IMG/VR virus record: IMGVR_UViG_3300032269_001670
Location: 1-64,000 of that record
Origin: a virus
Lineage: Duplodnaviria; Caudoviricetes
DNA length: 64,000 nt
Reading direction: 5' to 3' (one strand)
In this document: piece by piece, positions 5,258 through 22,571 of the stretch
How positions within the stretch are numbered: the stretch's first letter is position 1
Layout: each line of letters opens with the position of its first letter
Notes under the pieces: model-generated
Databases searched by the model: none
What the model was told of the DNA's origin: nothing
The model's input: only the letters and a program-made list of their open reading frames with translations
Program-made: the position numbers and the translations under genes

Positions 5258-5502
5258 CGTTGTGCGTGATCCCGAGTCACCTCCGGAGTCACGCCCGGGA
5301 GTGATAGAAGGATAGAGTGAAGGAAGGATTGAATAAAAGAGTGATGGAAGGATTTAGGTATTTTAAAAAAATCCAGGCCAGGCGTTGCCCTTTGCTGTTT
5401 TTGTGGGGAGAGGGGTTGAGGGGATCTGGTGAAATGTTGAACTCTGCGCAGCGCTGACCCCGCCCGGCCACCTCGACGAACGGTCAAGGGGGTTGAGGCA
5501 AC

Positions 5503-5538
5503 AAGAAGCCCCACCCCCCGTAGGGGGCGGGGCTGCTT
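5503..5538 (-). terminator. intrinsic terminator (cassette A)
   Basis: GC-rich stem, UACG loop, U-rich tail on minus strand, about 20 nt past the ORF stop. Confidence 0.75.
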
Positions 5539-5556
5539 GGTTCCGAGCTTCTCGGT

Positions 5557-5778
5557 CTAGTTGCTCAGGTGGAGACCGATCTCCTCGCCTACGATCCACG
5601 CCGCTACGAAGAGACCGAAGCCAGCGAACCCGCCAACAATCGCCATACCTGGACTCACCCAAAATCCGGTGCCGCCGACCACTACGCCGAACCCGCCGTC
5701 GTAGCCGAACGCCCCACCGAGGACGATAGCCCCGAGCGCAATCGTTGCCACCATCAGAGCTTGTGCTGCCTTGCTCAT
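5557..5778 (-). CDS. small Gly-rich membrane protein
   Basis: 73 aa with 2-3 hydrophobic segments; own promoter, RBS GAAGGGAG and terminator. Confidence 0.75.
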   Translation of the reverse strand: MSKAAQALMVATIALGAIVLGGAFGYDGGFGVVVGGTGFWVSPGMAIVGGFAGFGLFVAAWIVGEEIGLHLSN

Positions 5779-5828
5779 TTCGTTTCTCCCTTCGTCGGTT
5801 CGGGTCTGTGCCTACCCCCGACACATAG

Positions 5829-5856
5829 AGAATAGCGCAACCACGGCAGGAGTCAA
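5829..5856 (-). promoter_or_regulatory. sigma70-type promoter
   Basis: TTGACT-N16-TATTCT. Confidence 0.7.
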
Positions 5857-5917
5857 GAGGTAAGCTCAGGCGAGGCCGACCCCGACCGCTGCCCTCAACC
5901 GGTGCCTACCTACCCAT

Positions 5918-6012
5918 TAGTTCGTGGGGTCAGGGGTAGCGCGCGAGTAATGAATGAATGATGAATGATGAATGAGTGATGAAATGGGGTATGGGGTGAA
6001 GGGGTAAGGGGT
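5918..6012 (+). repeat. spacer: TAGTTCGTGGGG, (TGAA/TGA)n and four GGGG tracts
   Basis: GGGGTATGGGGTGAAGGGGTAAGGGG at 5986-6011. Confidence 0.9.
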
Positions 6013-6039
6013 GAATCAGAAAAATCGATGAACGGGCAA

Positions 6040-6073
6040 CAAGAAACCCGCCCCCGAAGGAGCGGGTTTCTTG
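6040..6073 (-). terminator. intrinsic terminator (cassette B)
   Basis: AAGAAACCCGC..CCGAAGG..GCGGGTTTCTT; cUUCGg loop on minus strand. Confidence 0.85.
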
Positions 6074-6090
6074 CGCCCGAAGGCTACCGA

Positions 6091-6555
6091 CTAGCAGCCG
6101 CGCTGCGGCTCCATCTTGACCTGCTCCTCTCCTGCGATGAGCCACGACACGAGCCGAGTCAGGTTCACGCCACGATGCGCGTGGAACGAGGCGCGCTTCA
6201 CACACGCCGACCCTTCCTTCCCCGCGTACTCGCAGAAGGTCGTGATGCCGTACTCAACAGGAGCCGAGATCACCAACGAGAGCGAAGGATCGCCAGCCTT
6301 GCTCAACCAGACACCGAGGGCGTGCTCGTCGCGGTTGATCTGCCCAGCCACGCGAACCAGTACCGAACCCGACTCAGCGACCGCCTCAGTCTTTACCCGA
6401 CCGAGAGCCTTGTGGTCAGCCTGCCGCCTCGAAGCAGAGGCAACGCGGCGAGCGCGCTCCTTCTCCGTGGTCGGCTTCGTCCAGTAGGTCAGAACGACGA
6501 CCTTCCCACCGGACTTCTTGGCGGCTTCCAGACCCTCTTCGTAGGTCATTCCCAT
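6091..6555 (-). CDS. hypothetical protein, paralog of 10152-10643
   Basis: 154 aa from ATG at 6555; C-x9-C-x6-H-x-H; ends in GC. Confidence 0.8.
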   Translation of the reverse strand: MGMTYEEGLEAAKKSGGKVVVLTYWTKPTTEKERARRVASASRRQADHKALGRVKTEAVAESGSVLVRVAGQINRDEHALGVWLSKAGDPSLSLVISAPVEYGITTFCEYAGKEGSACVKRASFHAHRGVNLTRLVSWLIAGEEQVKMEPQRGC

Positions 6556-6612
6556 TTGGTACTCCCTGTCGGGCGGTTGCCTAGCGGCTCCCTCTATGCT
6601 CCCGACACAAGA

Positions 6613-6641
6613 AAGATACACCCACCGAAGCCAGAGCGCAA
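6613..6641 (-). promoter_or_regulatory. sigma70-type promoter
   Basis: TTGCGC-N17-TATCTT. Confidence 0.7.
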
Positions 6642-6699
6642 GCCCGACCCATCAGGCGCAACGCTGCCCGCTCATCGACATTGCCCGCCTTTGGCCCTT

Positions 6700-6961
6700 T
6701 GTTCTTGGGGTGAGGGGTAATGATGATGATGAATGATGAATGATGATGAATGATGAATGAGGGCTGAAAAAGAAGCTCCGCGCTCATTGACCGAGTCTCG
6801 ACAGAGCAGCCCGAAGGTTGACTCTTGCCGGACAACGAGTCGTAGTTCTTGGGGTCAGGGGTAAATGGTGGGGTAAGGGGTAAGGGGTAGATGATGAATG
6901 ATGAACGATGATGATGATGTCGATGAACGGGCAGCGATGGGGTAAGGGGTGGGGGCAGGGG
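6700..6961 (+). repeat. double spacer with G-tracts and TGA microsatellites
   Basis: (TGA/TGAA)n at 6721-6759 and 6891-6927; five GGGG at 6851-6887; four G-tracts at 6939-6961. Confidence 0.9.
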
Positions 6962-6991
6962 TGAAGGCCTTCACGATGACCAGACACAACC

Positions 6992-7032
6992 CAACAAGAA
7001 ACCCGCCCCCCGAAGGGAGCGGGTTCCTGTTG
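6992..7032 (-). terminator. intrinsic terminator (cassette C)
   Basis: Near copy of the 6040-6073 terminator. Confidence 0.85.
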
Positions 7033-7050
7033 CCCGAGGCTCGACGAAGG

Positions 7051-7545
7051 CTAGCCCGTGATGATGGCACCCTTCCTGCGGTTCTCAATGCCCAACGCCC
7101 ACGCCAGATCGCCGTAGCGAGTCCGAGCGTCAGCGAGCATCTGAAGATCCTCTGGGCGCTGCTCCCAGAGCGCAACGATGGTGCGGCGTGCCGACTCGGT
7201 GAGGTCTCCGAACTCCTCTTCGTCGTAGCCCGTCGAGTAGTGGGCAGCGTCATCTACCAACTCGCGGAACTCTGCTGGATTCATCACCAAAACCACCCAA
7301 CCCTCGTTGGTGCCGTTCGTTGACCGAATCTCGACGGAGACGAAGTCAAGGTCGCGGCTCGTGTGGTCGTCCCAGAAGCGACCCGAAACCACGAGAGCCT
7401 TCGCAGCCTTGCCAAGCGTGCGGATAGCAGCATTCGCAGCGGCGTGCTCCTCGTCAGTGATGGAGAGCAGGACGGAGCGGACGATTGCCCGCACCTCGAC
7501 GAGACGCTTCTCGTTGCTCTCACTGCTGAACGGATTTCCGTCCAT
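7051..7545 (-). CDS. hypothetical protein
   Basis: 164 aa; RBS GAAAGGGG; own promoter and terminator. Confidence 0.75.
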   Translation of the reverse strand: MDGNPFSSESNEKRLVEVRAIVRSVLLSITDEEHAAANAAIRTLGKAAKALVVSGRFWDDHTSRDLDFVSVEIRSTNGTNEGWVVLVMNPAEFRELVDDAAHYSTGYDEEEFGDLTESARRTIVALWEQRPEDLQMLADARTRYGDLAWALGIENRRKGAIITG

Positions 7546-7596
7546 TGTGTACCCCTTTCGTCAGGGCGGGTCTGTGCCGACAACCCCAACACCGAA

Positions 7597-7625
7597 AGAC
7601 TACATCGACAGACGGGCAGCGTCAA
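7597..7625 (-). promoter_or_regulatory. sigma70-type promoter
   Basis: TTGACG-N17-TAGTCT. Confidence 0.75.
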
Positions 7626-7667
7626 ACCCGACGCACCAGACGCAACGACCGAACCACCTATGAAGTC

Positions 7668-7915
7668 GTAGTCCTTGGGGATAGGGGTACGCCCGAAGTA
7701 ATGGCCTGATGATGATGACCTGATGATGATGACCTGATGAATGAGAACTGATGAATGATGACCGCTACCGGTGCTGAGATTCTCAAAGCTACACAAGAAA
7801 CGACCCCGTAGGAACGACGGAGAGGCACGGAAACGAGTAGGCCTATACCAGAACACCTAGAAGTTTTGGGGTAAGGGGTACGGGGTAAGGCCTAAGGGGT
7901 GAGGGGTAATGAGTG
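7668..7915 (+). repeat. double spacer with G-tracts and TGA repeats
   Basis: (TGATGATGACC)x2 and TGAA repeats at 7706-7760; five GGGG at 7868-7906. Confidence 0.9.
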
Positions 7916-7921
7916 AGGCCA

Positions 7922-7960
7922 TAAAGAAACCACCCCCACCCCGAAGGGTGAGGGTGGCCT
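7922..7960 (-). terminator. intrinsic terminator (cassette D)
   Basis: CCACCC..CACCCGAAGGGTG..GGGTGG with TTTCTTT tail on minus strand. Confidence 0.8.
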
Positions 7961-7983
7961 CAGTTGCCCCCAGCCGGAGAGGA

Positions 7984-8340
7984 CTACCTCTCAAAGTGTG
8001 TCGGCCAGACCTTTCGTGGCTCCTCTACGGCTACGACGAAGGCCAACGGCTTCCCGTCCAACTCAACCCACGAGCCGTTCAGGCCAGCAACACCGGCTTC
8101 GGTCATCACCTCAACAGCCCAAGCAGGAGCGTCCTCGGAAGAGTCGGACTCAGGGCCGAACTCACGAACCGAGTCAATCTCAAGCACCGCGCCGATTGCC
8201 TGAATCATTCCGCGCACGGTGGGCATCACATCACCAAAGGTGTCGGCCTCGGTTTCGTCATACGACCACCCGCTCGCCAGATTGACCCGCTGACCGCTAC
8301 CGGTGTCGGGCTTTGGTACGAAGACCAAGAAACGCCACAT
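7984..8340 (-). CDS. hypothetical acidic protein
   Basis: 118 aa; RBS GAAAGGGG; own promoter and terminator. Confidence 0.75.
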   Translation of the reverse strand: MWRFLVFVPKPDTGSGQRVNLASGWSYDETEADTFGDVMPTVRGMIQAIGAVLEIDSVREFGPESDSSEDAPAWAVEVMTEAGVAGLNGSWVELDGKPLAFVVAVEEPRKVWPTHFER

Positions 8341-8390
8341 AGCGTTCCCCTTTCTGTGCTACTCGGCCGAGCATAGCGTCCGAGGAGTTG

Positions 8391-8419
8391 AGTGTAGCCG
8401 GTGGTGGGCAACAGCGCAA
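8391..8419 (-). promoter_or_regulatory. sigma70-type promoter
   Basis: TTGCGC-N17-TACACT. Confidence 0.75.
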
Positions 8420-8460
8420 GCGAACGCTGACCGAGTCCAGGAATCTATTCTTTAGGTTGT

Positions 8461-8662
8461 TAGTTCTTGGGGCTAGGGGTAATGGGGTATGGGGTAATGA
8501 ATGATGAATGATGACTGATGATGCTGGACTAATGAATGATGACCGCGACCGGCCACAACCAAGAGCGCGCAGCTCGACGCGAACCATTGACCCTGAGCCG
8601 GTATTGGGGCAACGGGGTATGGGGTCAGGGGTCGGTGGGGGTCAGGGGTGAATGATGAATGA
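8461..8662 (+). repeat. double spacer with G-tracts and TGA repeats
   Basis: TAGTTCTTGGGG; four GGGG at 8469-8494; six G-tracts at 8606-8648. Confidence 0.9.
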
Positions 8663-8668
8663 ACGGAT

Positions 8669-8706
8669 AAAGAAGAAGCCCCACCCCCGAAGGGGCAGGG
8701 CTTCAT
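8669..8706 (-). terminator. intrinsic terminator (cassette E)
   Basis: GAAGCCC..CCCCGAAGGGG..GGGCTTC; UUCG loop. Confidence 0.85.
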
Positions 8707-8728
8707 TGACCGCTACCGGCCGCGTCGT

Positions 8729-9040
8729 TCAGTTGTCGAGGTCATCACCGAACTGGTAGCCGCACGGCTCGCAGTAGTCGCCCGACCAGCCAGCCATCGC
8801 GTCGCACTTGGGGCAAACGCCCGAGGTGCTCATCTCGGTACAATCGACCCAGGCTGAACGCTCGTCATCGAGCAGGAACTCCCGCGCATCGTCGGCGGTG
8901 TCGGCGTTGTACGCCGCCAACTCCGAAGCCAGCGCAATCAGGGCTGCCGTTGCCTCTGACCGGCCAGCGTGCCACGAGCGGTGCGTCTCGTTCTCCCAGA
9001 CCACCTCGACCAGCCAGAGCGTCTTCTCCGTGTCCGTCAT
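8729..9040 (-). CDS. hypothetical protein with C-terminal zinc ribbon
   Basis: 103 aa from ATG at 9040; CPKC-x9-CEPC. Confidence 0.75.
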   Translation of the reverse strand: MTDTEKTLWLVEVVWENETHRSWHAGRSEATAALIALASELAAYNADTADDAREFLLDDERSAWVDCTEMSTSGVCPKCDAMAGWSGDYCEPCGYQFGDDLDN

Positions 9041-9083
9041 TTCTGTTCTCCTCTCTGTACTACCGGCAACTGCCGGCACCCGA

Positions 9084-9113
9084 AGTATACGCGGCCGGTC
9101 GCGGTCAGCGCAA
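9084..9113 (-). promoter_or_regulatory. sigma70-type promoter
   Basis: TTGCGC-N18-TATACT. Confidence 0.75.
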
Positions 9114-9124
9114 GTCCGAACCAT

Positions 9125-9360
9125 AGAGGAGAGAGAAGGGAGAGAGAGGAGAGAGAGTAGAGAGAAGTAGTTCTTGGGGTGTGGGGTATGGGGTAATGAT
9201 GAATGAATGATGAATGAGTGAATGATGAACTGGTGAATGATGAATGACGCTGACCGAATCCCGGTGAGCGTCGAGCTACGACCGAATGGAACGACGGACG
9301 GAGTGGCCTAGTTCTTGGGGTCTGTGGTGTGGGGTCTGGGGTCTGGGGTCTGGGGTGAAT
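9125..9360 (+). repeat. spacer: (GA)n tract, TAGTTCTTGGGG twice, TGAA repeats, (TCTGGGG)n
   Basis: GA-rich 9125-9166; TGAA/TGA 9196-9247; five GGGG at 9317-9355. Confidence 0.9.
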
Positions 9361-9380
9361 AATAGCCTGATGAATAGCAC

Positions 9381-9422
9381 CAACAAAAAGACCCCACCCC
9401 CGAAGGGGTGAGGCCTTTGTTG
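9381..9422 (-). terminator. intrinsic terminator (cassette F)
   Basis: CACCCCCGAAGGGGTG core with U-tract on minus strand. Confidence 0.8.
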
Positions 9423-9440
9423 CCCGTTCGCCGGCAGCGT

Positions 9441-9824
9441 TCAGAAGGGAGCGGCTTCCTCGTTCTGCTCGGTGTAGGCCTTGCGCGCCATCGTCCGCAT
9501 CTTGCGGATAGTGCGCTCATAGCGAGCACTGCTCTGCTGGTAGCACGAGGCCACCCACTCCATCAGTTCGGCGTCGGTCGTCCACTCCCAGAAGTCGAGA
9601 GGGAGAACGCCGAGGAGCGGGGCGGCATCGCCACCCTGCCAGAGGTGAACCTCGTTCACGGGCGCAGCCATCCCGTAGAGGATGGCCTCATAGCGGATCG
9701 CCTCGCCGTTGCCCGAATCCCGGCGAACGACCACCGACCGCTGCCAGAGCGAACCGCTGCGCTCGCCTTCCTGCTCATCTCCGAGAACTACCGAGAGGGT
9801 AGCCTTCTCATTACTCTTGGCCAT
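9441..9824 (-). CDS. hypothetical protein
   Basis: 127 aa from ATG at 9824; RBS AGAGGAG. Confidence 0.75.
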   Translation of the reverse strand: MAKSNEKATLSVVLGDEQEGERSGSLWQRSVVVRRDSGNGEAIRYEAILYGMAAPVNEVHLWQGGDAAPLLGVLPLDFWEWTTDAELMEWVASCYQQSSARYERTIRKMRTMARKAYTEQNEEAAPF

Positions 9825-9874
9825 TGCTGGTCTCCTCTGTGCTCGTCGGTGGAGCATTGCCACCGAACACCCCA

Positions 9875-9903
9875 AGTTTACCGGCACACAGGCAACAGCG
9901 CAA
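9875..9903 (-). promoter_or_regulatory. sigma70-type promoter
   Basis: TTGCGC-N17-TAAACT. Confidence 0.75.
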
Positions 9904-9944
9904 CAGGCCACCAACCGAACGACGACCGAGCGGCCAGTCAGTCA

Positions 9945-10083
9945 GTTAGTTAGTTGGTTAGTTCGTGGGGGTGCGGGGGGAATGAGTGGGGAGTGAATGA
10001 GTAATGAGTGAATGATGAATGAGGCCTGAACTATTGGTGGGGGTGTGGGGGTGTGGGGGGTGCGGGGTGAAATGTTGCCCGTG
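9945..10083 (+). repeat. spacer: (GTTA/GTCA)n, TGAA/TGAG repeats, G-tracts
   Basis: Four G-tracts at 10039-10067; TGAAATGTTGCCCGTG at 10068-10083. Confidence 0.85.
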
Positions 10084-10102
10084 AAAAGCTCTGACGAAAT
10101 GA

Positions 10103-10137
10103 TGAGGCCGCCACCCCCGACGGGATGACGGCCTCGG
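10103..10137 (-). terminator. terminator-like hairpin (cassette G)
   Basis: GAGGCCG...CGGCCTC stem; weak U tail. Confidence 0.6.
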
Positions 10138-10151
10138 TTCCGGTCGGACGA

Positions 10152-10643
10152 CTAGCAGCCGCCGATGCTCTTATCCTCAACCTGCTCCTCGCCGCCGATC
10201 ATCCACGACACAAGGCGGGTGAGGTTCACCTCGCGGTGGCCGTGGAACGCGGCGCGCTTCTCGCACGCACTACCCACAACTCCCGCGTACTCGCACGCCG
10301 TAGTCCAGCCGTACTCGGTCGGAGCCGACAGCACCAGATTGACGCACGGCTCACCCTTCTTGGTGATGTACACGCCGAGCGGGTGGACATCGCGGTTTAC
10401 CTGACCCGCAACGCGGAACAGGAACGACACGCGCCCCTTCTCATCAACCACCTGCTCGCCCGTGGTCTGAACGCGACCAAGTGCGCGGTGGGTAGCAGCA
10501 CGAGCAGCGGCCTTCTTGGCGCGCTCCTCAAACTGCTTCTTGGTGGTCGGCGCGCTCCACGCCGTCAGCACGACGATCTTACCGCCGGACTTCTTCGCCG
10601 CTTCTACGGCCTTCTCGTACGACATCCCCTTTGGTTCAGTCAT
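10152..10643 (-). CDS. hypothetical protein, paralog of 6091-6555
   Basis: 163 aa; shared blocks EAAKKSGGK.VVLT.W, RVAGQ.NRD.H.LGV, CEYAG..GSAC.KRA.FH.HR.VNLTRLVSW; ends in GC. Confidence 0.85.
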   Translation of the reverse strand: MTEPKGMSYEKAVEAAKKSGGKIVVLTAWSAPTTKKQFEERAKKAAARAATHRALGRVQTTGEQVVDEKGRVSFLFRVAGQVNRDVHPLGVYITKKGEPCVNLVLSAPTEYGWTTACEYAGVVGSACEKRAAFHGHREVNLTRLVSWMIGGEEQVEDKSIGGC

Positions 10644-10688
10644 AGGTTCCTTCTCCCTACTACTTCATCGGCAAGTGCCGACAGGTAC

Positions 10689-10717
10689 AGGTTAGCCCAT
10701 CAGACAGACGAACGCAA
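10689..10717 (-). promoter_or_regulatory. sigma70-type promoter
   Basis: TTGCGT-N17-TAACCT. Confidence 0.7.
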
Positions 10718-10744
10718 CCGCGACGCGCCAGACGCAACGCAGCC

Positions 10745-10834
10745 GGTCAGTCAGTCTGGGGTGTGGGGTATGGGGTGTGGGGTATGGGGGCGGTATAAAC
10801 CCGCAGTAATAGGCCGCCTGAAATGTTGCCCGTG
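10745..10834 (+). repeat. spacer: (TNTGGGG)x5
   Basis: TCTGGGG TGTGGGG TATGGGG TGTGGGG TATGGGGG at 10755-10790. Confidence 0.9.
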
Positions 10835-10850
10835 TAAAGCTGTACAAAGA

Positions 10851-10892
10851 GAGAGGCCGCCACCCCCGCACAGATGGGAGCGACGGCCTCGG
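10851..10892 (-). terminator. intrinsic terminator (cassette H)
   Basis: GAGGCCG...CGGCCTC stem with pyrimidine tail. Confidence 0.7.
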
Positions 10893-10909
10893 AGCCGAAC
10901 CGGAGAGGC

Positions 10910-11377
10910 CTAGCGGTAGTCGCTCGGCATCACCGGATTGTGGAGTGAGTCAATCCACACCGCGCCAATAAGCGGCGTATCCAAGAGCGTAGACTCAATG
11001 GCCTCAAAGACCTCGGCAGCGATAGGCGACGACTCGCCACCGGTAGCGTCTACGAAGTTAGCGAACGCGACCGGATCGCCGGAGAAGATCGCCGCCTGAG
11101 CGATAGTGATGGTCTTCCACGAATCAGCCTCGTAGTATGACCAGAACGAGCCGCCGGTCTCGTCGTCAGCCCAGCCAATCAGCACCGCAAGAGCGGTGCC
11201 GTAGGTTGGCACATAAGCGATGAGGTCGTCGCCGTCGCCGTAGCGAACATAGGCGCGATAGGCCGCGTCAGCCGGTAGCGTCTGGCGGCAAGCAGGGCAG
11301 ACACCCTGCGACTGGTTGCCGAGGTACTTCTGAACCCACTTCGTCGCCGGAGTGGTCTGGTCAGTTGCGTTGCTCAT
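10910..11377 (-). CDS. hypothetical protein with CxxC
   Basis: 155 aa from ATG at 11377; RBS AGGAAGGAA. Confidence 0.75.
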   Translation of the reverse strand: MSNATDQTTPATKWVQKYLGNQSQGVCPACRQTLPADAAYRAYVRYGDGDDLIAYVPTYGTALAVLIGWADDETGGSFWSYYEADSWKTITIAQAAIFSGDPVAFANFVDATGGESSPIAAEVFEAIESTLLDTPLIGAVWIDSLHNPVMPSDYR

Positions 11378-11426
11378 CTGTTCCTTCCTTCCTGTGCCTG
11401 TGCCGTTGCCAAGTGGCAACAGGTAC

Positions 11427-11607: not shown

Positions 11608-11626
11608 TAGATAACCGGAGCGACGA

Positions 11627-16429: not shown

Positions 16430-16458
16430 ATACTAATCTAGTGCGTTGTATCGGTCAA
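16430..16458 (-). promoter_or_regulatory. sigma70-type promoter
   Basis: TTGACC-N17-TAGTAT. Confidence 0.75.
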
Positions 16459-16702: not shown

Positions 16703-16775
16703 AGAACCTCCTACCGGCTCGTAAGCCGCAATACATACACGGTCAGAAGCCCGACCAGCAACCAGAATAGCACGA

Positions 16776-17219
16776 TCACAATACTTCGCAACCCTTCAGG
16801 TCGGAGCAGATGTGAAGGTATTCCTGCCAATGGCGAACTTCCTCAATCCACCCCTGAACCTCACCATCCTTGTCGATAAGAAACTGCGCTCCGTCGTATT
16901 CCTTCATAGCCTCAATCACCGCCGCGCGAATCTCAAGGTCATCCTTCTTGGCAAGAATCTCCCAAGCATCAAAGCACTCCCAATCACGGATGACCGTACC
17001 GGAGTTATCCCACAAGGCCTCATTGAGAAAGGCCACGCCAAGAAGCTCGTTGAGCTTGCGAAGGATACCCATACCGCCAATGTTCATCCGGTAATAGGCC
17101 GTGTTGCGCCAATAGTCCGGAGCTTCGTCGTTGTCGCCAAAAATCCACGGCGTTGCCTTCTTAGCAAACGCTAGCGACTTCTCCCTGTCCTCGCGCATAG
17201 AGTAAATGTCGTAGCCCAT
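16776..17219 (-). CDS. hypothetical protein
   Basis: 147 aa; MGYDIY...AYYRMNIGGM; RBS TAGGAGG. Confidence 0.75.
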   Translation of the reverse strand: MGYDIYSMREDREKSLAFAKKATPWIFGDNDEAPDYWRNTAYYRMNIGGMGILRKLNELLGVAFLNEALWDNSGTVIRDWECFDAWEILAKKDDLEIRAAVIEAMKEYDGAQFLIDKDGEVQGWIEEVRHWQEYLHICSDLKGCEVL

Positions 17220-17261
17220 ACTTCCTCCTACAACTTCCTACCGGAAAGCTCCGGCAGAGCG

Positions 17262-17291
17262 AGCATACACCCTCCCTACCGGAGTCGTCAA
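17262..17291 (-). promoter_or_regulatory. sigma70-type promoter
   Basis: TTGACG-N18-TATGCT. Confidence 0.75.
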
Positions 17292-17295
17292 GCAC

Positions 17296-17553
17296 CTACG
17301 CGCGCACCTTGCTGGCCTCGTACCGAGTGGACATCGCAAGCTTCTGTTCGTCTGACCAAGGCGGAACCTGATAGTCAAGCGGTTTGCGTGATTCCTCGTA
17401 CGCCCAGTCAATCCATCCTGAAAGCTCCACGAGATCGCGGTTCTCCCTGATGTATCGACGGATGCGCTTGCTGTATGCCGTATGACGCTCTAATGCCTTG
17501 CGGAACCGGACATACGCCCGGTAATCGTCCTCGGTATACAGCTGATCACTCAC
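17296..17553 (-). CDS. hypothetical protein
   Basis: 85 aa; GTG start overlaps upstream stop. Confidence 0.6.
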   Translation of the reverse strand: MSDQLYTEDDYRAYVRFRKALERHTAYSKRIRRYIRENRDLVELSGWIDWAYEESRKPLDYQVPPWSDEQKLAMSTRYEASKVRA

Positions 17554-18002
17554 TTCACTGACCTCCGTACCGGCTGAACTCCGGCCCGACGAAGCACGGT
17601 GTTGATGTATTGCGCGCTGACATCGTAGCTCTTGCCGATGAGCACAAGACGCTCACCGGCGCGATACCGGGTGACGACATCCTGTACGGCATCAGTAGTG
17701 AACTTCGTGCGCTTGCTCGTCGAAAGGCCAGCCGTAAAGAGTGCGTTCCTGATCGTGCTAGTCGAGCAGTTGAACTTCTTTGTGGCCTCAGTAAGTGTTG
17801 GCGAGTGTTCGCGGTAATACGACACGATCTCGTCGTAGTCATACTTGCGAAGCCGCGTGCTATTCAGAATCGGCGGACGATTGACGCCCATCTTTGCGAC
17901 GATCTGCTGAACCCGCTGTCGGGTGATGCCGTACTTTTCCGCGACGGACTGGAGTGTCATGCCACTAAGGTAATCAGTGGCAATGAGATTATTTCGTTCC
18001 AT
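17550..18002 (-). CDS. multi-HTH DNA-binding protein
   Basis: Three HTH-like repeats: TLQSVAEKYGITRQRVQQIV, TLTEATKKFNCSTSTIRNAL, RLVLIGKSYDVSAQYINTVL. Confidence 0.75.
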   Translation of the reverse strand: MERNNLIATDYLSGMTLQSVAEKYGITRQRVQQIVAKMGVNRPPILNSTRLRKYDYDEIVSYYREHSPTLTEATKKFNCSTSTIRNALFTAGLSTSKRTKFTTDAVQDVVTRYRAGERLVLIGKSYDVSAQYINTVLRRAGVQPVRRSVK

Positions 18003-18130
18003 TGCTCTCTCCTGTGAACAATACTGGGAGACGCCCAGCTCGTACGATAACTCTACTGACAGATGTACCATGTCAATCGGTAGAACCTATCGCTATTTCC
18101 TCTTGGGGTGCGGGGTTAGACAATCCGGGA

Positions 18131-18385
18131 ATGACATACTTTGTCGTGTATAAGCCCGGAAAACCTGATACTTGGCACATCACCTCGAGTGCCGGGTTCT
18201 ACGACGTTGCCACTACGCCAACCGAGGCCCTACAAATGATTAGCTCTGACGCTGAGAAACAGCAACCCGGCAACGACGACATTGAGTTTGCCGTCCGGTG
18301 GATCAACACCCCAGATGGATTCCTGGCTCCTGGGGAGGATGATCTTTCGGTGGATCTTCCGGCGGAGTCTTCTCTCCCAAACTAG
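18131..18385 (+). CDS. hypothetical protein, opposite strand to the array
   Basis: 84 aa from ATG at 18131; weak RBS. Confidence 0.4.
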   Translation: MTYFVVYKPGKPDTWHITSSAGFYDVATTPTEALQMISSDAEKQQPGNDDIEFAVRWINTPDGFLAPGEDDLSVDLPAESSLPN

Positions 18386-18433
18386 TGAGTTTTAGAATCC
18401 ATCCTATGAATGCTATGGCGTAGAGCGTTTCGA

Positions 18434-18784
18434 TCACGCCAAGATACCCTCTTGATCCGCACTCTGGCGAAGGTGGTCCATGTATTCCTTCGCTGGCTCG
18501 TCGTACGAAAAGATGCTGACGTTTGCGCCGCGCATCCCCTCAATCCACCCAACAACAACCTGTCCGTGTCGCTCATGGCTGACGAACGGCTCGCCCTGAA
18601 GGGCGATGTACAGGGTGTCATCCGCAAGGTTATCCGAAGCTCCGGCAAGAGCCTCATACAAGGCCGTCCTACCGAACACCCCATCCACCTGCGGGTAGAT
18701 GTCGGAGTAGACAAACTCCTCGCCTGCTCCAACAATCTCGTCAATGGTGTTGCCGTCAATGTACGCGCTGTATACCGGCTTCAT
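18434..18784 (-). CDS. hypothetical protein
   Basis: 116 aa; RBS GTAGTAGGAGG. Confidence 0.7.
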   Translation of the reverse strand: MKPVYSAYIDGNTIDEIVGAGEEFVYSDIYPQVDGVFGRTALYEALAGASDNLADDTLYIALQGEPFVSHERHGQVVVGWIEGMRGANVSIFSYDEPAKEYMDHLRQSADQEGILA

Positions 18785-18786
18785 AC

Positions 18787-19584
18787 TCAACCTCCTACTA
18801 CGCCGCCAAAGTTCTCATCGCAGAACGACTCGAAGGCGGTCATTGGAATCGTATCATAGTCGCGCTCGTAGCTACGCGAGCCATCCTCCTCCTTGTACCA
18901 CGCCTCGTCTGGGAGAGAGTCGTGCTCGCTGCTGTATTCCTGCCGTGAGATTTCGTTGCCCGAGTGATACATCACCTCACCCGCAAAGCCCATACCCGCC
19001 TCACAATAGCGATGCGAAATGGTCAGCGTCGGGAACAGCCCAGAGAGCTCGTGAGCCACAGGCTCCGCAGGACTCCACGCCGTCTCAAAGTTATACGAGG
19101 TGCGACCATCAGTAGCAAGGTCGTCGGCGCGGTCGTTCCACACCTCACCGCAGTTCCACTTCGTCCCCCAGTTGGCAACATTCCAGTTGTACCACCAGTC
19201 GGGGTGCGACGAAATCTCGCCGAGCTTGTGCGTCGGGCAGACCGATGAACCGCCGAATCCGGCAGCAACAAAGTCCTTGATCGTGCCGTTGTCGAGCACT
19301 TCCTTCTCAATGAGTAAGCCGTTCACTTCCCAATGGCCTTCAGCCTTCTCGAAGCCGTCCTCGCCCCACTCGCCGACCTGCGGCTTCGTCTCAACCCAAA
19401 CCTTCTGACAGCCGCACTGGAAGTCATTCTGCGTCTCTGCCGCAGCATAGATAGGGCTATCCGGTGGCGGCACAATCTTGGCAAAGTCGAAGTCGCCGTT
19501 CTCTCCCTTTACTAACGCAATGAGCCGGACGATCTCTGCCTCATCGCCCGTGATGTCCAGTTGATTTACGCACCAGTTTGGCAT
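18787..19584 (-). CDS. YubB/DUF1281 ferredoxin-like domain protein
   Basis: MPNWC.N.L.ITG, FDFAKIVP.P, WY.WNVANWGTKWN, FETAWSP, YCEAGMGFAG. Confidence 0.8.
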   Translation of the reverse strand: MPNWCVNQLDITGDEAEIVRLIALVKGENGDFDFAKIVPPPDSPIYAAAETQNDFQCGCQKVWVETKPQVGEWGEDGFEKAEGHWEVNGLLIEKEVLDNGTIKDFVAAGFGGSSVCPTHKLGEISSHPDWWYNWNVANWGTKWNCGEVWNDRADDLATDGRTSYNFETAWSPAEPVAHELSGLFPTLTISHRYCEAGMGFAGEVMYHSGNEISRQEYSSEHDSLPDEAWYKEEDGSRSYERDYDTIPMTAFESFCDENFGGVVGG

Positions 19585-19624
19585 ACTTTCTCCTACACTT
19601 CCTTACTCCAAGTGGAGTGGTACT

Positions 19625-19653
19625 ACCTTATCGTCTATGTGCTTGCGTGTCAA
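19625..19653 (-). promoter_or_regulatory. sigma70-type promoter
   Basis: TTGACA-N17-TAAGGT. Confidence 0.8.
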
Positions 19654-19934
19654 GCGTGCCGGTGGGCCTCTACAAAATCGCAGCCTGGCAAGAAGCACCA
19701 CCCCTCATCACGAGCTTGCTTGTCCGACATAAATGGCGGATGGAATTCACACTCACACGGAGCGCAGTCCAAGCAGTAGACGAGATAGCCGTCTGGCACA
19801 CTTCCCTCATACAGCTCGAAGTCAAGCACATCGAAGCGCGTGTACGGCATACCATTCCAAGTGCCGATGACCTTCTCGTCGGCGTAGAACACCATGTCTC
19901 CGCACGCAATACACTTATCCATCTGGCCGCTCAT
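19650..19934 (-). CDS. Cys-rich hypothetical protein
   Basis: 94 aa; CIAC, CLDCAPCEC. Confidence 0.6.
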   Translation of the reverse strand: MSGQMDKCIACGDMVFYADEKVIGTWNGMPYTRFDVLDFELYEGSVPDGYLVYCLDCAPCECEFHPPFMSDKQARDEGWCFLPGCDFVEAHRHA

Positions 19935-20476
19935 GATGCCACCTGCGCGTAGCGAATCATCGCGTCGGCTTCGGCATCTGCCTGATCGTAGCCAATGATG
20001 CCGCCCAACGACTCAACAATCTCCCAAGTGTTCTCGTGCGAATCAACGCCGCAGCTCACTGACTTCTCCAAGATGACGCAATAGACTTCACCGCGAAGCA
20101 CGGAGTCTACGACGCTAATCTCGGACTCGGCCTTCGCCGCAAGCTCCTCCTCGGTATACGAATCACCGAGCCAGAACTTCGCCTGATCCTTCTCAATCAC
20201 ATAGAAGCCAATCTGCGCGGAGTCCCACTTATCGGTGAACGGCGTAAGGCTGATGCTCATGCCGGAGTGCGAGAAGCCGTAGACCTTGTGAACATACACC
20301 GCATCTGCCGGTGGCGTGAAGGTGGCGACATTTTCGTCATCCACCGAAAGCTTGACATCCCACGGGAAGCCGTAGTTCGCGGCCTTCTCGCCGGTATAGA
20401 ACTGACCTGCGCGGTCGCCAAGGACATCGTAGCCGTCGGCTGTGTCCTGCTCAATCCTCGTCCTGTACTTATCCAT
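19931..20476 (-). CDS. hypothetical protein
   Basis: 181 aa; HSG.SIS..PF.DKWDS.QIGF; RBS TAGGAGG. Confidence 0.75.
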   Translation of the reverse strand: MDKYRTRIEQDTADGYDVLGDRAGQFYTGEKAANYGFPWDVKLSVDDENVATFTPPADAVYVHKVYGFSHSGMSISLTPFTDKWDSAQIGFYVIEKDQAKFWLGDSYTEEELAAKAESEISVVDSVLRGEVYCVILEKSVSCGVDSHENTWEIVESLGGIIGYDQADAEADAMIRYAQVAS

Positions 20477-20515
20477 ACTGCCTCCTACAACAATACGGCA
20501 ACTGCCGTGCTAACG

Positions 20516-20544
20516 ATACTAATGTGTCGGTATTGTCCTGTCAA
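20516..20544 (-). promoter_or_regulatory. sigma70-type promoter
   Basis: TTGACA-N17-TAGTAT. Confidence 0.8.
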
Positions 20545-20814
20545 CTACCTATCGGCGACCTGAAAGATGAGACGACCGCCACCATTCATCTCGTCGTCCG
20601 CCGAGACAATCACCTCGAACTTGTCGCCGTGAATGTCCTCAATAATAAAAACCGGGAATGGTGGGAAATAATCGTCGCCTTCCTCAACCCGGCCACCAAT
20701 AATCCGCGCGCCGCGCAGCGGCTCAAGCATCTCACTGATGATGTAATGAACTTCCCGATCCTCTGGCAGAAGCTTCTCGCGCTCCTTCACCAGTGCGTCA
20801 TGATCGACTGCCAT
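20545..20814 (-). CDS. hypothetical protein
   Basis: 89 aa; RBS TAGGAGG. Confidence 0.7.
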   Translation of the reverse strand: MAVDHDALVKEREKLLPEDREVHYIISEMLEPLRGARIIGGRVEEGDDYFPPFPVFIIEDIHGDKFEVIVSADDEMNGGGRLIFQVADR

Positions 20815-20823
20815 AATTTCCTC

Positions 20824-21012
20824 CTACTGCTGTGCTACCGGCACAACGATCTCGTCCTCGGGTGAGAACTGATCGACCGGAGCGAGTTCTGCGGTATACA
20901 CTACCTCGACGCCATACGGCGTGTCAAGTAGGGTAGGCCAATCCCAGTTTGCCGGATGATCTGCGCGCTCGTCCACTTCGATAGACAAGCTCACCAAGTA
21001 TGTTCGCGCCAT
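20824..21012 (-). CDS. hypothetical protein
   Basis: 62 aa; RBS TAGGAGG. Confidence 0.7.
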   Translation of the reverse strand: MARTYLVSLSIEVDERADHPANWDWPTLLDTPYGVEVVYTAELAPVDQFSPEDEIVVPVAQQ

Positions 21013-21045
21013 AACTTCCTCCTACACTACACGGCAACTGCCGTA

Positions 21046-21246
21046 CTACTGAGTATCTTCTTCTGGTGTCATCCTGTCAAGTACAAAGGCAAACCGAAAG
21101 GGCGTCTTGCTCCTGGGCTTGTGGGCGGCCTTACACTCCTCGCATACCCACGCGCCGTTCGGGTCTGGTACAAGTGTGTGCCTGATGTTATTCGGGCAGG
21201 TTGGCCACTTGCCTGACTCCCACGAGCTAGTTCGTTTCCGGCTCAT
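21046..21246 (-). CDS. small zinc-ribbon-like protein
   Basis: 66 aa; CPN...CEEC. Confidence 0.5.
   Translation of the reverse strand: MSRKRTSSWESGKWPTCPNNIRHTLVPDPNGAWVCEECKAAHKPRSKTPFRFAFVLDRMTPEEDTQ
21052..21080 (-). promoter_or_regulatory. sigma70-type promoter
   Basis: TTGACA-N17-GATACT. Confidence 0.65.
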
Positions 21247-21457
21247 CGCCTAACTCCTCCAAGATTGAATCGATCATCCGGTCGCCGGCCTCCTGCGCTT
21301 CGGCGGCAATCTCCTGATACGAGCTGTCGATGAAGTGCTCACACTCCTCGGCTGACCAGTGTGGACGCCGACGCTGGATGTCATCTGCCGTCCACTTGAC
21401 CGTAATCGAAATAATCTGAAAGTTCTCCCGGATCTCCTGTTCGCTCATCTCACTCAT
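21227..21457 (-). CDS. hypothetical protein
   Basis: 76 aa; DIQRRRPHWSAEECEHF. Confidence 0.65.
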   Translation of the reverse strand: MSEMSEQEIRENFQIISITVKWTADDIQRRRPHWSAEECEHFIDSSYQEIAAEAQEAGDRMIDSILEELGDEPETN

Positions 21458-21719
21458 TCACAACCACCAGACGGCAGTTGTCGAAGCCACGGGAGCACAT
21501 CCCCGGCTCGTGCTTGTACGGCTCGCTAATAGCTGCCCCACAAGAAAGGCACCACTCCCCGCAGGGGCAGAAGTCATCTGACGCAAAGATGGGGAACGGG
21601 GGATTACCCTCCGAATCCACGGCCGATGAATCAAGCTCCTCCCCAAACCGGGACTGAGCACACGGAACGCAGTGAACGGCTGCATCGTACTGATACGCCT
21701 GAACTGCCCACGCCTTCAT
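21450..21719 (-). CDS. Cys-rich hypothetical protein
   Basis: 89 aa from ATG at 21719; AYQYDAAVHCVPC, CPCGEWCLSC. Confidence 0.65.
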   Translation of the reverse strand: MKAWAVQAYQYDAAVHCVPCAQSRFGEELDSSAVDSEGNPPFPIFASDDFCPCGEWCLSCGAAISEPYKHEPGMCSRGFDNCRLVVVNE

Positions 21720-21776
21720 TAGAAGAACGCTCCGCAGACGATAAAGAAGATGACCCAAAACCACACGCTATTCATA
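21720..21776 (-). CDS. putative 18-aa hydrophobic peptide
   Basis: MNSVWFWVIFFIVCGAFF, with RBS TTAGGAGGG and a 5' hairpin. Confidence 0.45.
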
Positions 21777-21852
21777 CACCCTCCTAACTACTGCGCCAAC
21801 TCGCACACAATACAAAAAATCAACCAAAACAGCACAAACTCCAAGCACCCTC

Positions 21853-22173
21853 CTATGGCTGCTGAATCGTAGATTCGCAGTATACCAGACCATACGATTC
21901 GGGGTCGTGGCCAATGCGGGTCTCAAGCTTCAGGGCCGGCATCTCTACCTTCCTAATGCTCTCGCCACAGTCATGGCACCTGATCTCGGTAATGTCTGGG
22001 TAGCTATACTCCTCCGGGTTTGACTGAACGGCAATCTGCGCTCGCTCACCTTCGCCGATGATAGAGCAGACAACCTCGAGCAGTCCATAGAAGTAGATGC
22101 CATCCCACCATTCATTCGACGCCCGGGACTTCCCGGAGCACCCCTTATGGAGATAGGTCTTAAACGTGCTCAT
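21853..22173 (-). CDS. hypothetical protein
   Basis: 106 aa; CHDC; start overlaps upstream stop. Confidence 0.6.
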   Translation of the reverse strand: MSTFKTYLHKGCSGKSRASNEWWDGIYFYGLLEVVCSIIGEGERAQIAVQSNPEEYSYPDITEIRCHDCGESIRKVEMPALKLETRIGHDPESYGLVYCESTIQQP

Positions 22174-22421
22174 GAGGCCTTCTCAAGCTTGTGCGCCTTA
22201 TCGGTCGCGTCCATACCGACACCGGTAAGCCGCTGCACCTCGGGGCCATCGCCTTCTGCCTGATAGATCCTGAGCGCATCCCCATAGGCAATACACGCAT
22301 CAAGGTAGCTCCGCATCGCCTCTGGATTCTGGGTCTGCTGTGCCTGCATAAACGCATAGGCACCCCGAGCTGCTAAGAACCCTGTGAGCATTCCGTTCTC
22401 GTACTTTTGGCCTGTCGCCAT
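22170..22421 (-). CDS. hypothetical protein
   Basis: 83 aa from ATG at 22421; RBS GTAGTAGGAGG. Confidence 0.65.
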   Translation of the reverse strand: MATGQKYENGMLTGFLAARGAYAFMQAQQTQNPEAMRSYLDACIAYGDALRIYQAEGDGPEVQRLTGVGMDATDKAHKLEKAS

Positions 22422-22571
22422 ACCGGTACCTCCTACTACACACCCCAAATAGGGCAGTACCACCATAGGGGATAGAGAGCCAGCCGTCAAACCCAGCGAT
22501 GGTTAAGGTTTCTTTATCTTGGCTAAGGACGCTCTGCCTGGGGTGCGGGGTGCCGGATAGTAAAGATTCCT

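What the first reader, a model, noticed from the sequence alone, without database searches (positions are those of the whole stretch)
5290..22500. 17-kb array of self-contained, probably shufflable expression cassettes
Seen: about 35 small minus-strand ORFs served by 18 near-consensus sigma70 promoters (TTG(A/C)CN/TTGCGY-N16-18-TANNNT; two have a GANNNT -10). Units repeat as promoter, 5' hairpin, RBS, ORF, terminator and low-complexity spacer. From 5.5 to 12.1 kb every gene is monocistronic. Neighbouring spacers share exact blocks: TGAAATGTTGCCCGTG at 10068 and 10819; GGTACAGGTACGGCCTGA at 11526 and 12139; TAGTTC(T/G)TGGGG at 5918, 6843, 8461, 9168, 9309, 9959; near-identical terminators at 6040 and 6992. 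Established: repeated promoter/stem-loop elements (PeSL) mediate modular shuffling of small genes in T4-type phages, and integrons store cassettes between repeated sites. Inference: this is a phage cassette library of early host-takeover or anti-defence genes, exchanged by recombination between spacers. No integrase is in the window, so the Sak-like annealase and exonuclease at 635-2142 are the candidate machinery.
Basis: partly seen in the sequence, partly recalled or inferred. Interest (0 to 1): 0.9.

Follow-up and report, generated by a model that had tools for sequence, protein, structure and literature searches.

The report
Shuffled phage gene cassettes, C-tract joints
An uncultured 86-kb phage carries a row of small unknown genes, each with its own start and stop signals, and related phages have gained, lost, moved and swapped these genes, in the junctions that could be mapped at short C-rich repeats between them; this is a new variant of the gene shuffling known from T4-like phages.

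Summary
The minus strand of 5.3-22.5 kb carries about 32 small ORFs and about 20 host-type (sigma70-like) promoters. Each promoter is followed by a 5' hairpin and a strong RBS: 20 matches, against 1.1 +/- 1.1 in shuffles and 0 on the antisense strand. Only the distal 7 kb (5.5-12.2 kb) consists of fully self-contained cassettes with terminators and long spacers. The proximal 10 kb is compact operons with internal promoters.

The shuffling inference passes its own refutation test. About 20 related metagenomic contigs show at least 8 cassette orders and no inverted cassette. One cassette, about 97% identical, sits in two different slots. Its homology starts right after a resident C4-N3-C4 tract and ends with its own tract. 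ORFs are also replaced inside conserved promoter/leader and terminator frames.

The complete genome has no integrase or resolvase. A Rad52/Sak-like annealase, PD-(D/E)XK exonuclease, RusA and SSB module lies beside the array.

This is a PeSL/moron-type hyperplastic region in an unrelated phage lineage, with strand-specific C-tract (G4-type) joints as the novel feature. This scan has found similar cassette arrays in several other uncultured phages. Gene functions, transcript ends and the recombination enzyme remain untested.

The parts
5258..22560 (-). Whole leftward-transcribed accessory-gene region. It runs from the first promoter (-35 at 22490, C-tract just upstream) to the last terminator beside tRNA-Asn.
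   Evidence: Gene map, sequence read, GC skew, tRNAs.
5497..5856 (-). Cassette A: promoter (-35 at 5856), 5' hairpin, 73-aa hydrophobic ORF 5557-5778, terminator 5507-5534.
6038..6641 (-). Cassette B: ORF 6091-6555. It is a paralogue of G (B/G family, conserved C..C..H.H motif).
   Evidence: (promoter with -35 at 6641; it misses the composite filter); terminator block shared with C.
6992..7625 (-). Cassette C: ORF 7051-7545.
   Evidence: 89% identical to G001 from 5 nt inside the terminator end to 10 nt beyond the -35. Only 62% identical to collinear G002 although the flanks are 94-95% identical.
7920..8419 (-). Cassette D: ORF 7984-8340.
   Evidence: The homology block with G001 starts exactly at the terminator end and stops 26 nt inside the promoter, so the promoter was swapped.
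8665..9113 (-). Cassette E: ORF 8729-9040.
   Evidence: Block boundaries -5/+4 nt relative to terminator end and -35.
9378..9903 (-). Cassette F: ORF 9441-9824. In other relatives it is replaced by the unrelated ORF x54.
   Evidence: Block boundaries -3/0 nt. ORF-exact replacement between G001 and G003.
10095..10717 (-). Cassette G: ORF 10152-10643 (B/G family).
10843..11455 (-). Cassette H: ORF 10910-11377.
11563..12069 (-). Cassette I: ORF 11627-11995 (DUF3846).
   Evidence: 58% identical to G002 inside 89-97% identical flanks. Compensatory changes in its terminator stem.
12165..13014 (-). Three-gene unit (12700-12942, 12534-12707, J 12237-12518) with promoter at 13014 and terminator 12175-12206.
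5857..6037 (-). Spacer B>A: TCATTCA-type repeats plus C4-N3-C4 tracts (5926-5936, 5986-6011).
6642..6991 (-). Spacer C>B: two repeat/C-tract modules around a remnant hairpin-plus-T-run, read as an empty cassette.
   Evidence: same remnant in L076.
7626..7919 (-). Spacer D>C: two modules around an orphan terminator (7804-7822).
   Evidence: the orphan terminator is conserved in L076, L017 and G004.
8420..8664 (-). Spacer E>D with C-tracts 8469-8494 and 8606-8648.
   Evidence: a 59-nt C-tract block is deleted in G002.
9114..9377 (-). Spacer F>E with C-tracts 9176-9193 and 9331-9355.
   Evidence: repeat-unit indels against G002.
9904..10094 (-). Spacer G>F with C-tracts 9967-9980 and 10039-10067.
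10718..10842 (-). Spacer H>G with C-tract 10758-10790.
11456..11562 (-). Spacer I>H with C-tract 11503-11520. This slot holds an extra B/G cassette in L108, L109, G001 and G003.
12070..12164 (-). Spacer J>I with C-tract 12114-12135. This slot holds the same extra cassette in L104-type relatives.
13015..22500 (-). Proximal compact part: operons with internal promoter-hairpin units (-35 at 22490, 21080, 20544, 19653, 18075, 17291, 16458, 15872, 14572, 14098). It has one strong terminator (14678-14704). It includes RadC-JAB (14748-15242), a sigma70_r4-type HTH protein (17550-18002) and an Api92-like/DUF1281_C protein (18787-19584).
   Evidence: gene order largely fixed in relatives.
635..1282 (+). 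Candidate single-strand annealing protein (Rad52/Sak-like fold).
   Evidence: AlphaFold model pLDDT 69.6. The top Foldseek hits are RAD52, Mgm101 and phage 80alpha Sak, with weak E-values from 5e-3. No Pfam hit.
1282..2142 (+). PD-(D/E)XK exonuclease.
   Evidence: PF12705, E 1.4e-20.
3045..3861 (+). RusA Holliday-junction resolvase (3045-3485) and SSB (3478-3861).
   Evidence: PF05866 E 1.1e-6; PF00436 E 6.5e-23.

Best explanation
This is the hyperplastic accessory-gene region of an uncultured tailed phage that encodes no integrase or resolvase. The phage is not T4-like and not N4-like. Host sigma70 RNA polymerase reads the region leftward from about 20 promoters. Each transcript begins with a stem-loop and a strong Shine-Dalgarno sequence.

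In the distal 7 kb every gene is a stand-alone cassette. A cassette consists of pre-promoter, promoter, 5' hairpin, RBS, orphan ORF and intrinsic terminator. It is followed by a strand-specific spacer module of TCATTCA-type repeats and C4-N3-C4 tracts.

Cassettes are gained, lost and moved between slots by recombination at the C-tract modules. One unit runs from the end of one C-tract to the end of the next. ORFs are exchanged inside conserved leader and terminator frames.

Shown: the anatomy; the permutations; the positions of the junctions; the absence of a tyrosine or serine recombinase.

Inferred: the joining is short-homology or microhomology recombination carried out by the adjacent Rad52/Sak-like annealase, exonuclease, RusA and SSB module. 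It would act during replication or co-infection, possibly through excised circles. The spacers would also insulate transcription, through the terminator plus a C-rich, G-poor, rut-like RNA and G-runs on the template strand.
For: Promoter/hairpin/RBS composite: 20 on the sense strand against 1.1 +/- 1.1 in shuffles and 0 on the antisense strand. Terminators are in excess.

At least 8 cassette orders occur in about 20 contigs from many metagenomes. The same order recurs in independent samples and no cassette is inverted.

Against G001, distal adjacencies are kept in 3 of 9 cases and proximal ones in 11 of 11.

In G000 versus G001, the homology blocks of C, D, E, F and H end within -5 to +17 nt of the terminator end. 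They end within -26 to +28 nt of the -35.

The same cassette lies between J and I in 4 contigs and between I and H in 3 contigs. It is 94% identical over the aligned stretch and about 97% within the unit. Its homology is bounded by C-tracts on both sides.

An extra B cassette in L076 is flanked by the repeat/C-tract module on both sides.

F is replaced by the unrelated x54 within 8 nt of the stop codon and 4 nt of the start codon.

ORFs C and I are 62% and 58% identical to G002 inside flanks that are 89-97% identical.

Spacers are homogenised within lineages: 9-mer sharing is 0.06-0.08 within a genome against 0.013-0.022 between lineages.

C-tracts cover 5.6% of the distal sense strand against 0.1% elsewhere.

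No integrase or resolvase is found. The recombination module is present.
Against: No RNA data exist, so promoters, terminators and monocistronic transcripts are predictions.

The annealase assignment rests on weak fold scores (best E 5e-3, model pLDDT 70).

Only three whole-cassette indels could be mapped to the nucleotide. In one of them (L076 against L017) the downstream junction is not clean between the C-tract and the next promoter.

Between the G000 and G001 lineages the spacers cannot be aligned, so those breakpoints are only bracketed.

A selection filter could add to the contrast between the distal and proximal parts, because autonomous cassettes tolerate rearrangement.
Confidence: 0.72

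Rival explanations
1. Passive moron row. The cassettes are ordinary early genes. Rearrangements arise by rare illegitimate recombination anywhere, and only those falling between autonomous units survive. The spacers exist solely as transcription insulators (intrinsic terminator, Rho-loading C-rich RNA, template-strand G-runs) and have no role in recombination.
For: The spacer modules lie directly downstream of terminators, are strictly strand-specific and are G-poor on the RNA strand. Spacers are more conserved than several ORFs between G000 and G002, which suggests selection on them. The compact proximal part would not tolerate breaks.
Against: Junctions of the mapped indels fall at the C-tract itself, which is 5.6% of the sequence. 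They do not fall anywhere in the 170-500-nt spacers. The inserted unit carries its own module, so the module is duplicated on both sides, as expected for homology-guided exchange. Spacers are homogenised within lineages.
Confidence: 0.18
2. A dedicated but unrecognised site-specific or structure-specific enzyme cuts and joins at the C/G-tracts. It could be one of the orphan proteins or a host factor. This would make the array a true integron analogue.
For: Junctions lie at one edge of a conserved C4-N3-C4 periodic motif whose loop bases vary. Every cassette keeps the same orientation.
Against: No tyrosine or serine recombinase is present in a genome rated 100% complete. The tracts vary in length and sequence, with no inverted-repeat core. 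A general recombination module is present and sufficient in principle.
Confidence: 0.06
3. The different orders are metagenome mis-assemblies across repeated spacers.
For: The spacers are repetitive and several strains co-occur in the same samples (for example, two related contigs from dataset 3300032311).
Against: The same orders recur in contigs from different datasets: three or more for the B-x54-C-D-E-G-H-I type, and three for the A-B-F/x54-E-D-G-C-H-G type. Repeats shared between spacers are short and imperfect. They are 25-63 nt at 60-88% identity, with exact blocks of at most about 18 nt, well below read length.
Confidence: 0.03

Closest known systems
PeSL (promoter-early stem-loop) regulatory cassettes in the hyperplastic regions of T4-type phages (Arbiol et al. 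2010, PMC2839356; Comeau et al. 2014, PMC4122927)
   Same: Repeated composites of a strong sigma70-like promoter and a stem-loop/terminator lie between ORFan genes in a plastic region. Insertions, deletions and replacements between close relatives are bounded by the repeated regulatory DNA. No site-specific recombinase is involved. The model proposes an excised mini-circle that can re-insert at another copy.
   Different: The phage is an unrelated 86-kb lineage. The intergenic units are 170-500 nt, not about 100 nt. The terminator and promoter are separated by a dedicated low-complexity module. [quoted passage not shown] The stem-loop next to the promoter lies at the transcript 5' end and is distinct from the terminator. 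Mini-circles have not been looked for.
Morons of temperate phages (reviewed in PMC3594210)
   Same: Independent transcription units (promoter, gene, terminator) added between genes and spread horizontally among phages.
   Different: Morons are usually single insertions in prophages, expressed from the repressed prophage for the host's benefit. Here ten units form a contiguous array in a phage without integrase, with shared joints.
Integron gene-cassette arrays
   Same: A one-directional row of small, mostly orphan genes. A unit is an ORF plus one 3' repeat element, inserted next to a resident copy of that element. The order is variable.
   Different: There is no IntI integrase and no attC hairpin site. 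Every cassette has its own promoter and terminator instead of depending on a single Pc promoter.
SPO1 host-takeover module (24 small early genes; PMC10531801)
   Same: A dense cluster of small early genes of mostly unknown function. From my own knowledge, not from the paper cited, it is read by host RNA polymerase from many strong promoters.
   Different: The SPO1 module lies in a long terminal redundancy and is not known for spacer-mediated shuffling. Here the end repeat is only 123 bp and the array lies 5 kb inside.
G4-dependent pilin antigenic variation in Neisseria gonorrhoeae (recalled from memory, not checked here)
   Same: A G-quadruplex-forming tract next to a variable locus is needed for recombination.
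   Different: That case has a single G4 acting with RecA-dependent gene conversion in a bacterium. Here G-tracts lie in every spacer of a phage array, and no structure or dependence has been shown.

Membership tests
PeSL-type modular shuffling | Repeated sigma70-like promoter plus stable stem-loop motif, concentrated in a plastic region, upstream of ORFans | tested here: met
   20 composite promoter/hairpin/RBS units on the sense strand against 1.1 in shuffles. The distal ORFs have no Pfam or PHROG family except DUF3846.
PeSL-type modular shuffling | Indels and replacements between close relatives are bounded by the repeated regulatory DNA | tested here: met
PeSL-type modular shuffling | Crossover in the AT-rich region or promoter-stem-loop itself, in a motif of about 100 bp | tested here: not met
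   Whole-cassette junctions lie at C-tracts 25-100 nt upstream of the -35. The regions upstream of the -35 are GC-rich. ORF-level exchanges do use the leader and terminator.
PeSL-type modular shuffling | Mini-circles formed by exchange between neighbouring motifs | not testable with these tools
PeSL-type modular shuffling | Host genome is a T4-type myovirus | tested here: not met
   The genome is 85.7 kb. It has no nucleotide match in 50,697 phage records. The nearest protein hits are short matches to Roseobacter, Limnohabitans and Synechococcus phages.
Moron | Autonomous unit of promoter, gene and terminator between other genes | tested here: met
   Units A-I; these are predictions only, with no RNA data.
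Integron | IntI tyrosine recombinase | tested here: not met
   PF00589 is absent from the complete genome, and the control genomes were positive. PF00239 is also absent.
Integron | attC sites (imperfect inverted repeats) and promoterless cassettes behind one Pc promoter | tested here: not met
   The joints are direct, strand-specific C-tracts, and every cassette has its own promoter.
N4-like phage early region (hairpin promoters for a virion RNA polymerase) | Giant virion RNA polymerase gene | tested here: not met
   The 3397-aa ORF gives only a tape-measure-type PHROG hit and one hit of unknown function, with no RNA polymerase family. The hairpins lie downstream of canonical -35/-10 hexamers.
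Rad52/Sak single-strand annealing proteins (for ORF 635-1282) | Rad52-like N-terminal fold | tested here: inconclusive
   The top 10 Foldseek hits are RAD52 or Mgm101, and Sak is at ranks 14 and 41. However, E-values are 5e-3 or weaker and model pLDDT is 69.6. There is no Pfam hit.

The most novel reading that the evidence does not exclude
The C4-N3-C4 tracts (G-runs on the template strand) are not just patches of homology. They would be structure-forming (G-quadruplex or i-motif) elements that stall replication or transcription in every spacer. The stalls would create breaks or template switches that the phage's annealase resolves. The array would then be a recombinase-free, structure-driven counterpart of an integron, in which the G4 tract plays the part of attC.
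Probability: 0.2. Interest if true: 0.85.

Novelty: new variant of a known kind. Interest (0 to 1): 0.62.

Why it matters
How phages turn over their large stock of small accessory genes without site-specific recombinases is only partly understood. The PeSL model has been tested in a few T4-like phages. This array offers natural, nucleotide-resolved examples in an unrelated lineage. One cassette sits in two slots, ORFs are swapped inside fixed regulatory frames, and empty cassettes remain as scars. All of this is tied to a short, strand-specific, G4-type repeat that is easy to mutate and assay. If the tract is the active joint, it would be a simple, portable way to build and reshuffle insulated expression cassettes. 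It would also be a marker for finding accessory-gene (possibly anti-defence) libraries in metagenomic phages.

Tried and rejected
1. N4-like phage with hairpin promoters for a virion RNA polymerase. I suspected this from the 3397-aa ORF. I rejected it because there is no RNA polymerase family and the hits are tape-measure-type.

2. Integron-like site-specific system. I rejected it because there is no integrase or resolvase and no attC-like inverted repeats.

3. Assembly artefact. I rejected it because the same orders recur in independent datasets and the shared repeats are short.

4. Rapid drift as the reason that spacers of G000 and G001 do not align. I rejected it because spacers are 88-97% identical between G000 and G002, better than several ORFs. 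The G001 spacers therefore belong to a different, internally homogenised family.

5. Megablast of the 17 kb against 50,697 phage records gave no match.

6. Rfam gathering scan of the window found only the two tRNAs.

7. Fold search for the B/G family gave no credible match.

8. Pfam and PHROGs on the ten distal proteins gave only DUF3846 for I.

10. More distant relatives (57-67% exonuclease identity) have far fewer C-tracts and promoter-hairpin units in the 10 kb downstream. The dense architecture is therefore clade-specific.

Full report
WHAT THE WINDOW IS. The window is the first 64 kb of an 85,707-bp IMG/VR virus record with 123-bp identical ends, rated 100% complete. The 17-kb region has no nucleotide match among 50,697 cultured-phage records. 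The genome encodes a large terminase, tail-fibre proteins and a 3397-aa tape-measure-like protein. My first idea, an N4-like phage with a giant virion RNA polymerase, was therefore wrong. Genes 97-4521 lie on the + strand, followed by tRNA-Ile and tRNA-Asn. All genes from 5557 to 22421 but one (18131-18385, + strand) lie on the minus strand. Plus-strand genes resume at 23316.

OBSERVATION. A composite search for a sigma70-type promoter, a hairpin within 36 nt and an RBS plus start codon finds 20 sites on the array's sense strand. It finds none on the antisense strand and 8 in the remaining 68 kb counting both strands. One hundred dinucleotide shuffles give 1.1 +/- 1.1.

The hairpins start about 7 nt after the -10 hexamer, at the expected transcript 5' end. 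Their stems differ between units while staying paired, and their loops are mostly of the type R-S-T-T. Terminator-like sites number 32, against 13.5 +/- 4.4 expected, mostly on the minus strand.

The full unit of promoter, hairpin, RBS, ORF, terminator and spacer is repeated nine times between 5.5 and 12.2 kb (units A-I). A three-gene unit ending with J follows. From 12.2 to 22.5 kb the genes are packed into operons with internal promoters. That part has only one more strong terminator, after the RadC gene, and no long spacers.

THE SPACERS. Each distal spacer is 107-350 nt between terminator end and the next -35 (171-409 nt from stop codon to -35). It holds one or two modules made of TCATTCA-type short repeats followed by C4-N3-C4 tracts on the sense strand. 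A further 25-100 nt then lead to the next -35. C-tracts cover 5.6% of the distal sense strand, against 0.1% in the rest of the genome. Canonical four-run G4 motifs occur 7 times on the + strand between 5.9 and 10.8 kb, once elsewhere on that strand, and 0.3 times in shuffles. Two spacers contain orphan terminators between two modules, which look like emptied cassettes. The same scars occur in relatives.

COMPARATIVE TEST. Searching IMG/VR with the flanking exonuclease, with cassette G and with cassette H gave about 20 contigs that carry homologous arrays. Five whole records were fetched. Read from the tRNA side, the cassette orders are:
- A B C D E F G H I J: this genome and G002.
- A B F E D G C H G I J: G001, L107; L105 in part.
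- A B x54 E D G C H G I J: G003.
- B x54 C D E G H I G J: L104, L112, L114, L115; L106, L113 and L116 in part.
- B F x58 C E D G H I J: G004.
- x54 C B D E G H I J: L076.
- E H G I J: L102.
- x54 G H G I J: L109.

The same order recurs in contigs from different datasets, and none of well over 100 cassette instances is inverted. Against G001 only 3 of 9 distal adjacencies are kept, but 11 of 11 proximal ones are. An exact test on that table, computed by hand, gives p about 0.002. Rearrangement is therefore concentrated where the long spacers are.

BREAKPOINTS.
(a) Between this genome and G001 the backbone is about 80% identical. The cassettes are 60-92% identical, so they are a mosaic. The homology blocks of C, D, E, F and H end within -5 to +17 nt of the terminator's T-run. 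They end within -26 to +28 nt of the -35 hexamer, and the spacers between them do not align at all.

(b) One B/G-family cassette is 94% identical over the aligned stretch and about 97% within the unit. It lies between J and I in L104, L106/L120, L118 and L119. It lies between I and H in L102/L117, L108 and L109, and it is absent from both slots in L076 and L111. In both slots its homology begins immediately after a resident C-tract and ends at the last C-run of its own C-tract. In the stored orientation of the loci, the L104 insert is about 8485-9155 and the L108 insert about 5760-6778. At the downstream joint the only sequence shared with the empty site is the C-tract itself.

(c) L076 has an extra B cassette between D and C relative to L017, with the repeat/C-tract module present on both sides. 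The downstream joint is less clean there.

(d) Between G001 and G003, ORF F is replaced by x54. The two proteins show no similarity (E > 1). The homology breaks lie 8 nt beyond the stop codon and 4 nt before the start codon.

(e) Between this genome and the collinear G002, the intergenic regions are 88-97% identical, but ORFs C and I are only 62% and 58% identical. This genome's C is 89% identical to that of G001.

(f) In L108 a small zinc-ribbon ORF has been inserted between the 5' hairpin and the RBS of the mobile cassette, between two copies of the RBS-proximal motif.

Two levels of exchange therefore exist: whole units at C-tracts, and ORFs inside conserved leader and terminator frames.

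SPACER EVOLUTION. Different spacers of one genome share 3-4 times more 9-mers with each other than with spacers of the other lineage (0.06-0.08 against 0.013-0.022). The G001/G003 lineage uses its own roughly 45-nt element, made of a T-run, a short conserved box and two long C-runs. This genome's lineage uses TCATTCA repeats and multi-copy C4-N3 tracts. Between G000 and G002 the spacers differ mainly by gain or loss of whole repeat units (7, 9, 14 and 59 nt). One terminator stem shows paired compensatory changes. The spacers are thus conserved, homogenised and prone to slippage. They are not neutral filler.

MACHINERY AND CONTENT. No Phage_integrase or Resolvase domain occurs in the genome, and the control genomes were positive. 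The + strand block beside the array encodes:
- an HTH protein;
- a protein whose model matches RAD52, Mgm101 and Sak best, though weakly;
- a PD-(D/E)XK exonuclease and a DnaC/IstB-like ATPase;
- RusA, SSB and a thioredoxin.
The distal cassette proteins are orphans, apart from DUF3846 in I. The B/G family, with 2-3 copies per genome, has a conserved C..C..H.H motif and no fold match. The proximal part includes a RadC-like JAB protein, an Api92-like DUF1281_C protein and a sigma70-region-4-type HTH protein. From my own knowledge, these families are common in anti-restriction and leading-region contexts. This is a hint, not a test, of an anti-defence role.

MECHANISM. Best reading (0.72): short-homology or microhomology recombination at the C-tract modules, and at the conserved leaders and terminators for ORF swaps. 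It would be carried out by the phage's general recombination module during replication or mixed infection. The all-direct orientation of the joints explains why only deletions, duplications, excisions and re-insertions are seen, and never inversions. The spacers probably also insulate transcription. The enzymology, any circular intermediate, G4 formation and Rho loading are all inferred.

Rivals are a purely passive insulator role for the spacers (0.18), an unrecognised tract-specific enzyme (0.06) and mis-assembly (0.03).

COMPARISON AND NOVELTY. The closest known system is the PeSL cassettes of T4-type phages (PMC2839356, PMC4122927). This array shares its logic but not its lineage, unit size or crossover element. 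It also fits the moron concept (PMC3594210). It fails the integron tests. Earlier follow-ups in this scan reported PeSL-like cassette arrays in several other uncultured phages, so the general architecture is recurrent. The specific new points here are the strand-specific C-tract/G4-type joints, the nucleotide-resolved case of one cassette in two slots, and the lineage-wise homogenisation of the spacers.

LIMITS. All relatives are metagenomic contigs. No reads or RNA could be examined. Only three whole-cassette events were mapped to the base.

Noticed in passing
window 14104-14572 (-): A cassette slot with a promoter (-35 at 14572) but no convincing ORF. It is about 470 nt of GC-rich, apparently structured sequence between the RadC terminator and the next promoter. 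It has no Rfam family at gathering threshold.
   Followed up: partly
window 22571-22827 (-): Eight copies of an 8-nt iteron-like word (GTTATTCM) lie within 260 nt of the divergent intergenic region between the array and the + strand genes. The whole window has 10 copies, against 2.8 +/- 1.7 expected. It may be an origin or a regulator-binding array.
   Followed up: partly
window 24336-24737 (+): A 133-aa protein consisting only of sigma70 region 3 (weak) and region 4 (PF04545, E 8e-19). A second region-4-type HTH protein lies inside the array at 17550-18002. Either could modulate the array's -35-dependent promoters.
   Followed up: partly
window 6091-6555 and 10152-10643 (-); relatives in alignment A2: The B/G protein family has 2-3 diverged copies per genome (32-72% identity). 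It has invariant Cys, Cys, His, His positions and a confident model (pLDDT 78, pTM 0.73) with no PDB fold match.
   Followed up: partly
window 9441-9824 (-): The cassette F protein differs at only 0-5 of 127 residues between genomes whose backbones are about 80% identical at the DNA level. This suggests recent transfer of this one cassette between lineages.
   Followed up: partly
window 18131-18385 (+): The only well-scoring + strand ORF inside the array. It is conserved in position and strand in most relatives and is removed by a 374-nt indel in L116.
   Followed up: no
window 7804-7822 and about 6770-6800 (-): A hairpin-plus-T-run stands with no gene upstream at each site, between two spacer modules (the second was read by eye only). 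The first is conserved in L076, L017 and G004. They look like scars of deleted cassettes.
   Followed up: partly
window 10853-10890, 11573-11606, 12175-12206 (-): The terminators of H, I and J share the loop word ATCTGTG. From memory, this resembles the class II T7 RNA polymerase pause/termination signal. It is probably just paralogy of the terminators.
   Followed up: no
window 4584-4659 and 5183-5257 (+): tRNA-Ile (anticodon TAT) and tRNA-Asn (GTT) lie at the convergent boundary between the recombination module and the array.
   Followed up: no
window 60520-64000 and beyond (L080): A 3397-aa ORF with only a tape-measure-type PHROG match near residue 1840 and a small hit of unknown function near residue 256-327.
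   Followed up: no
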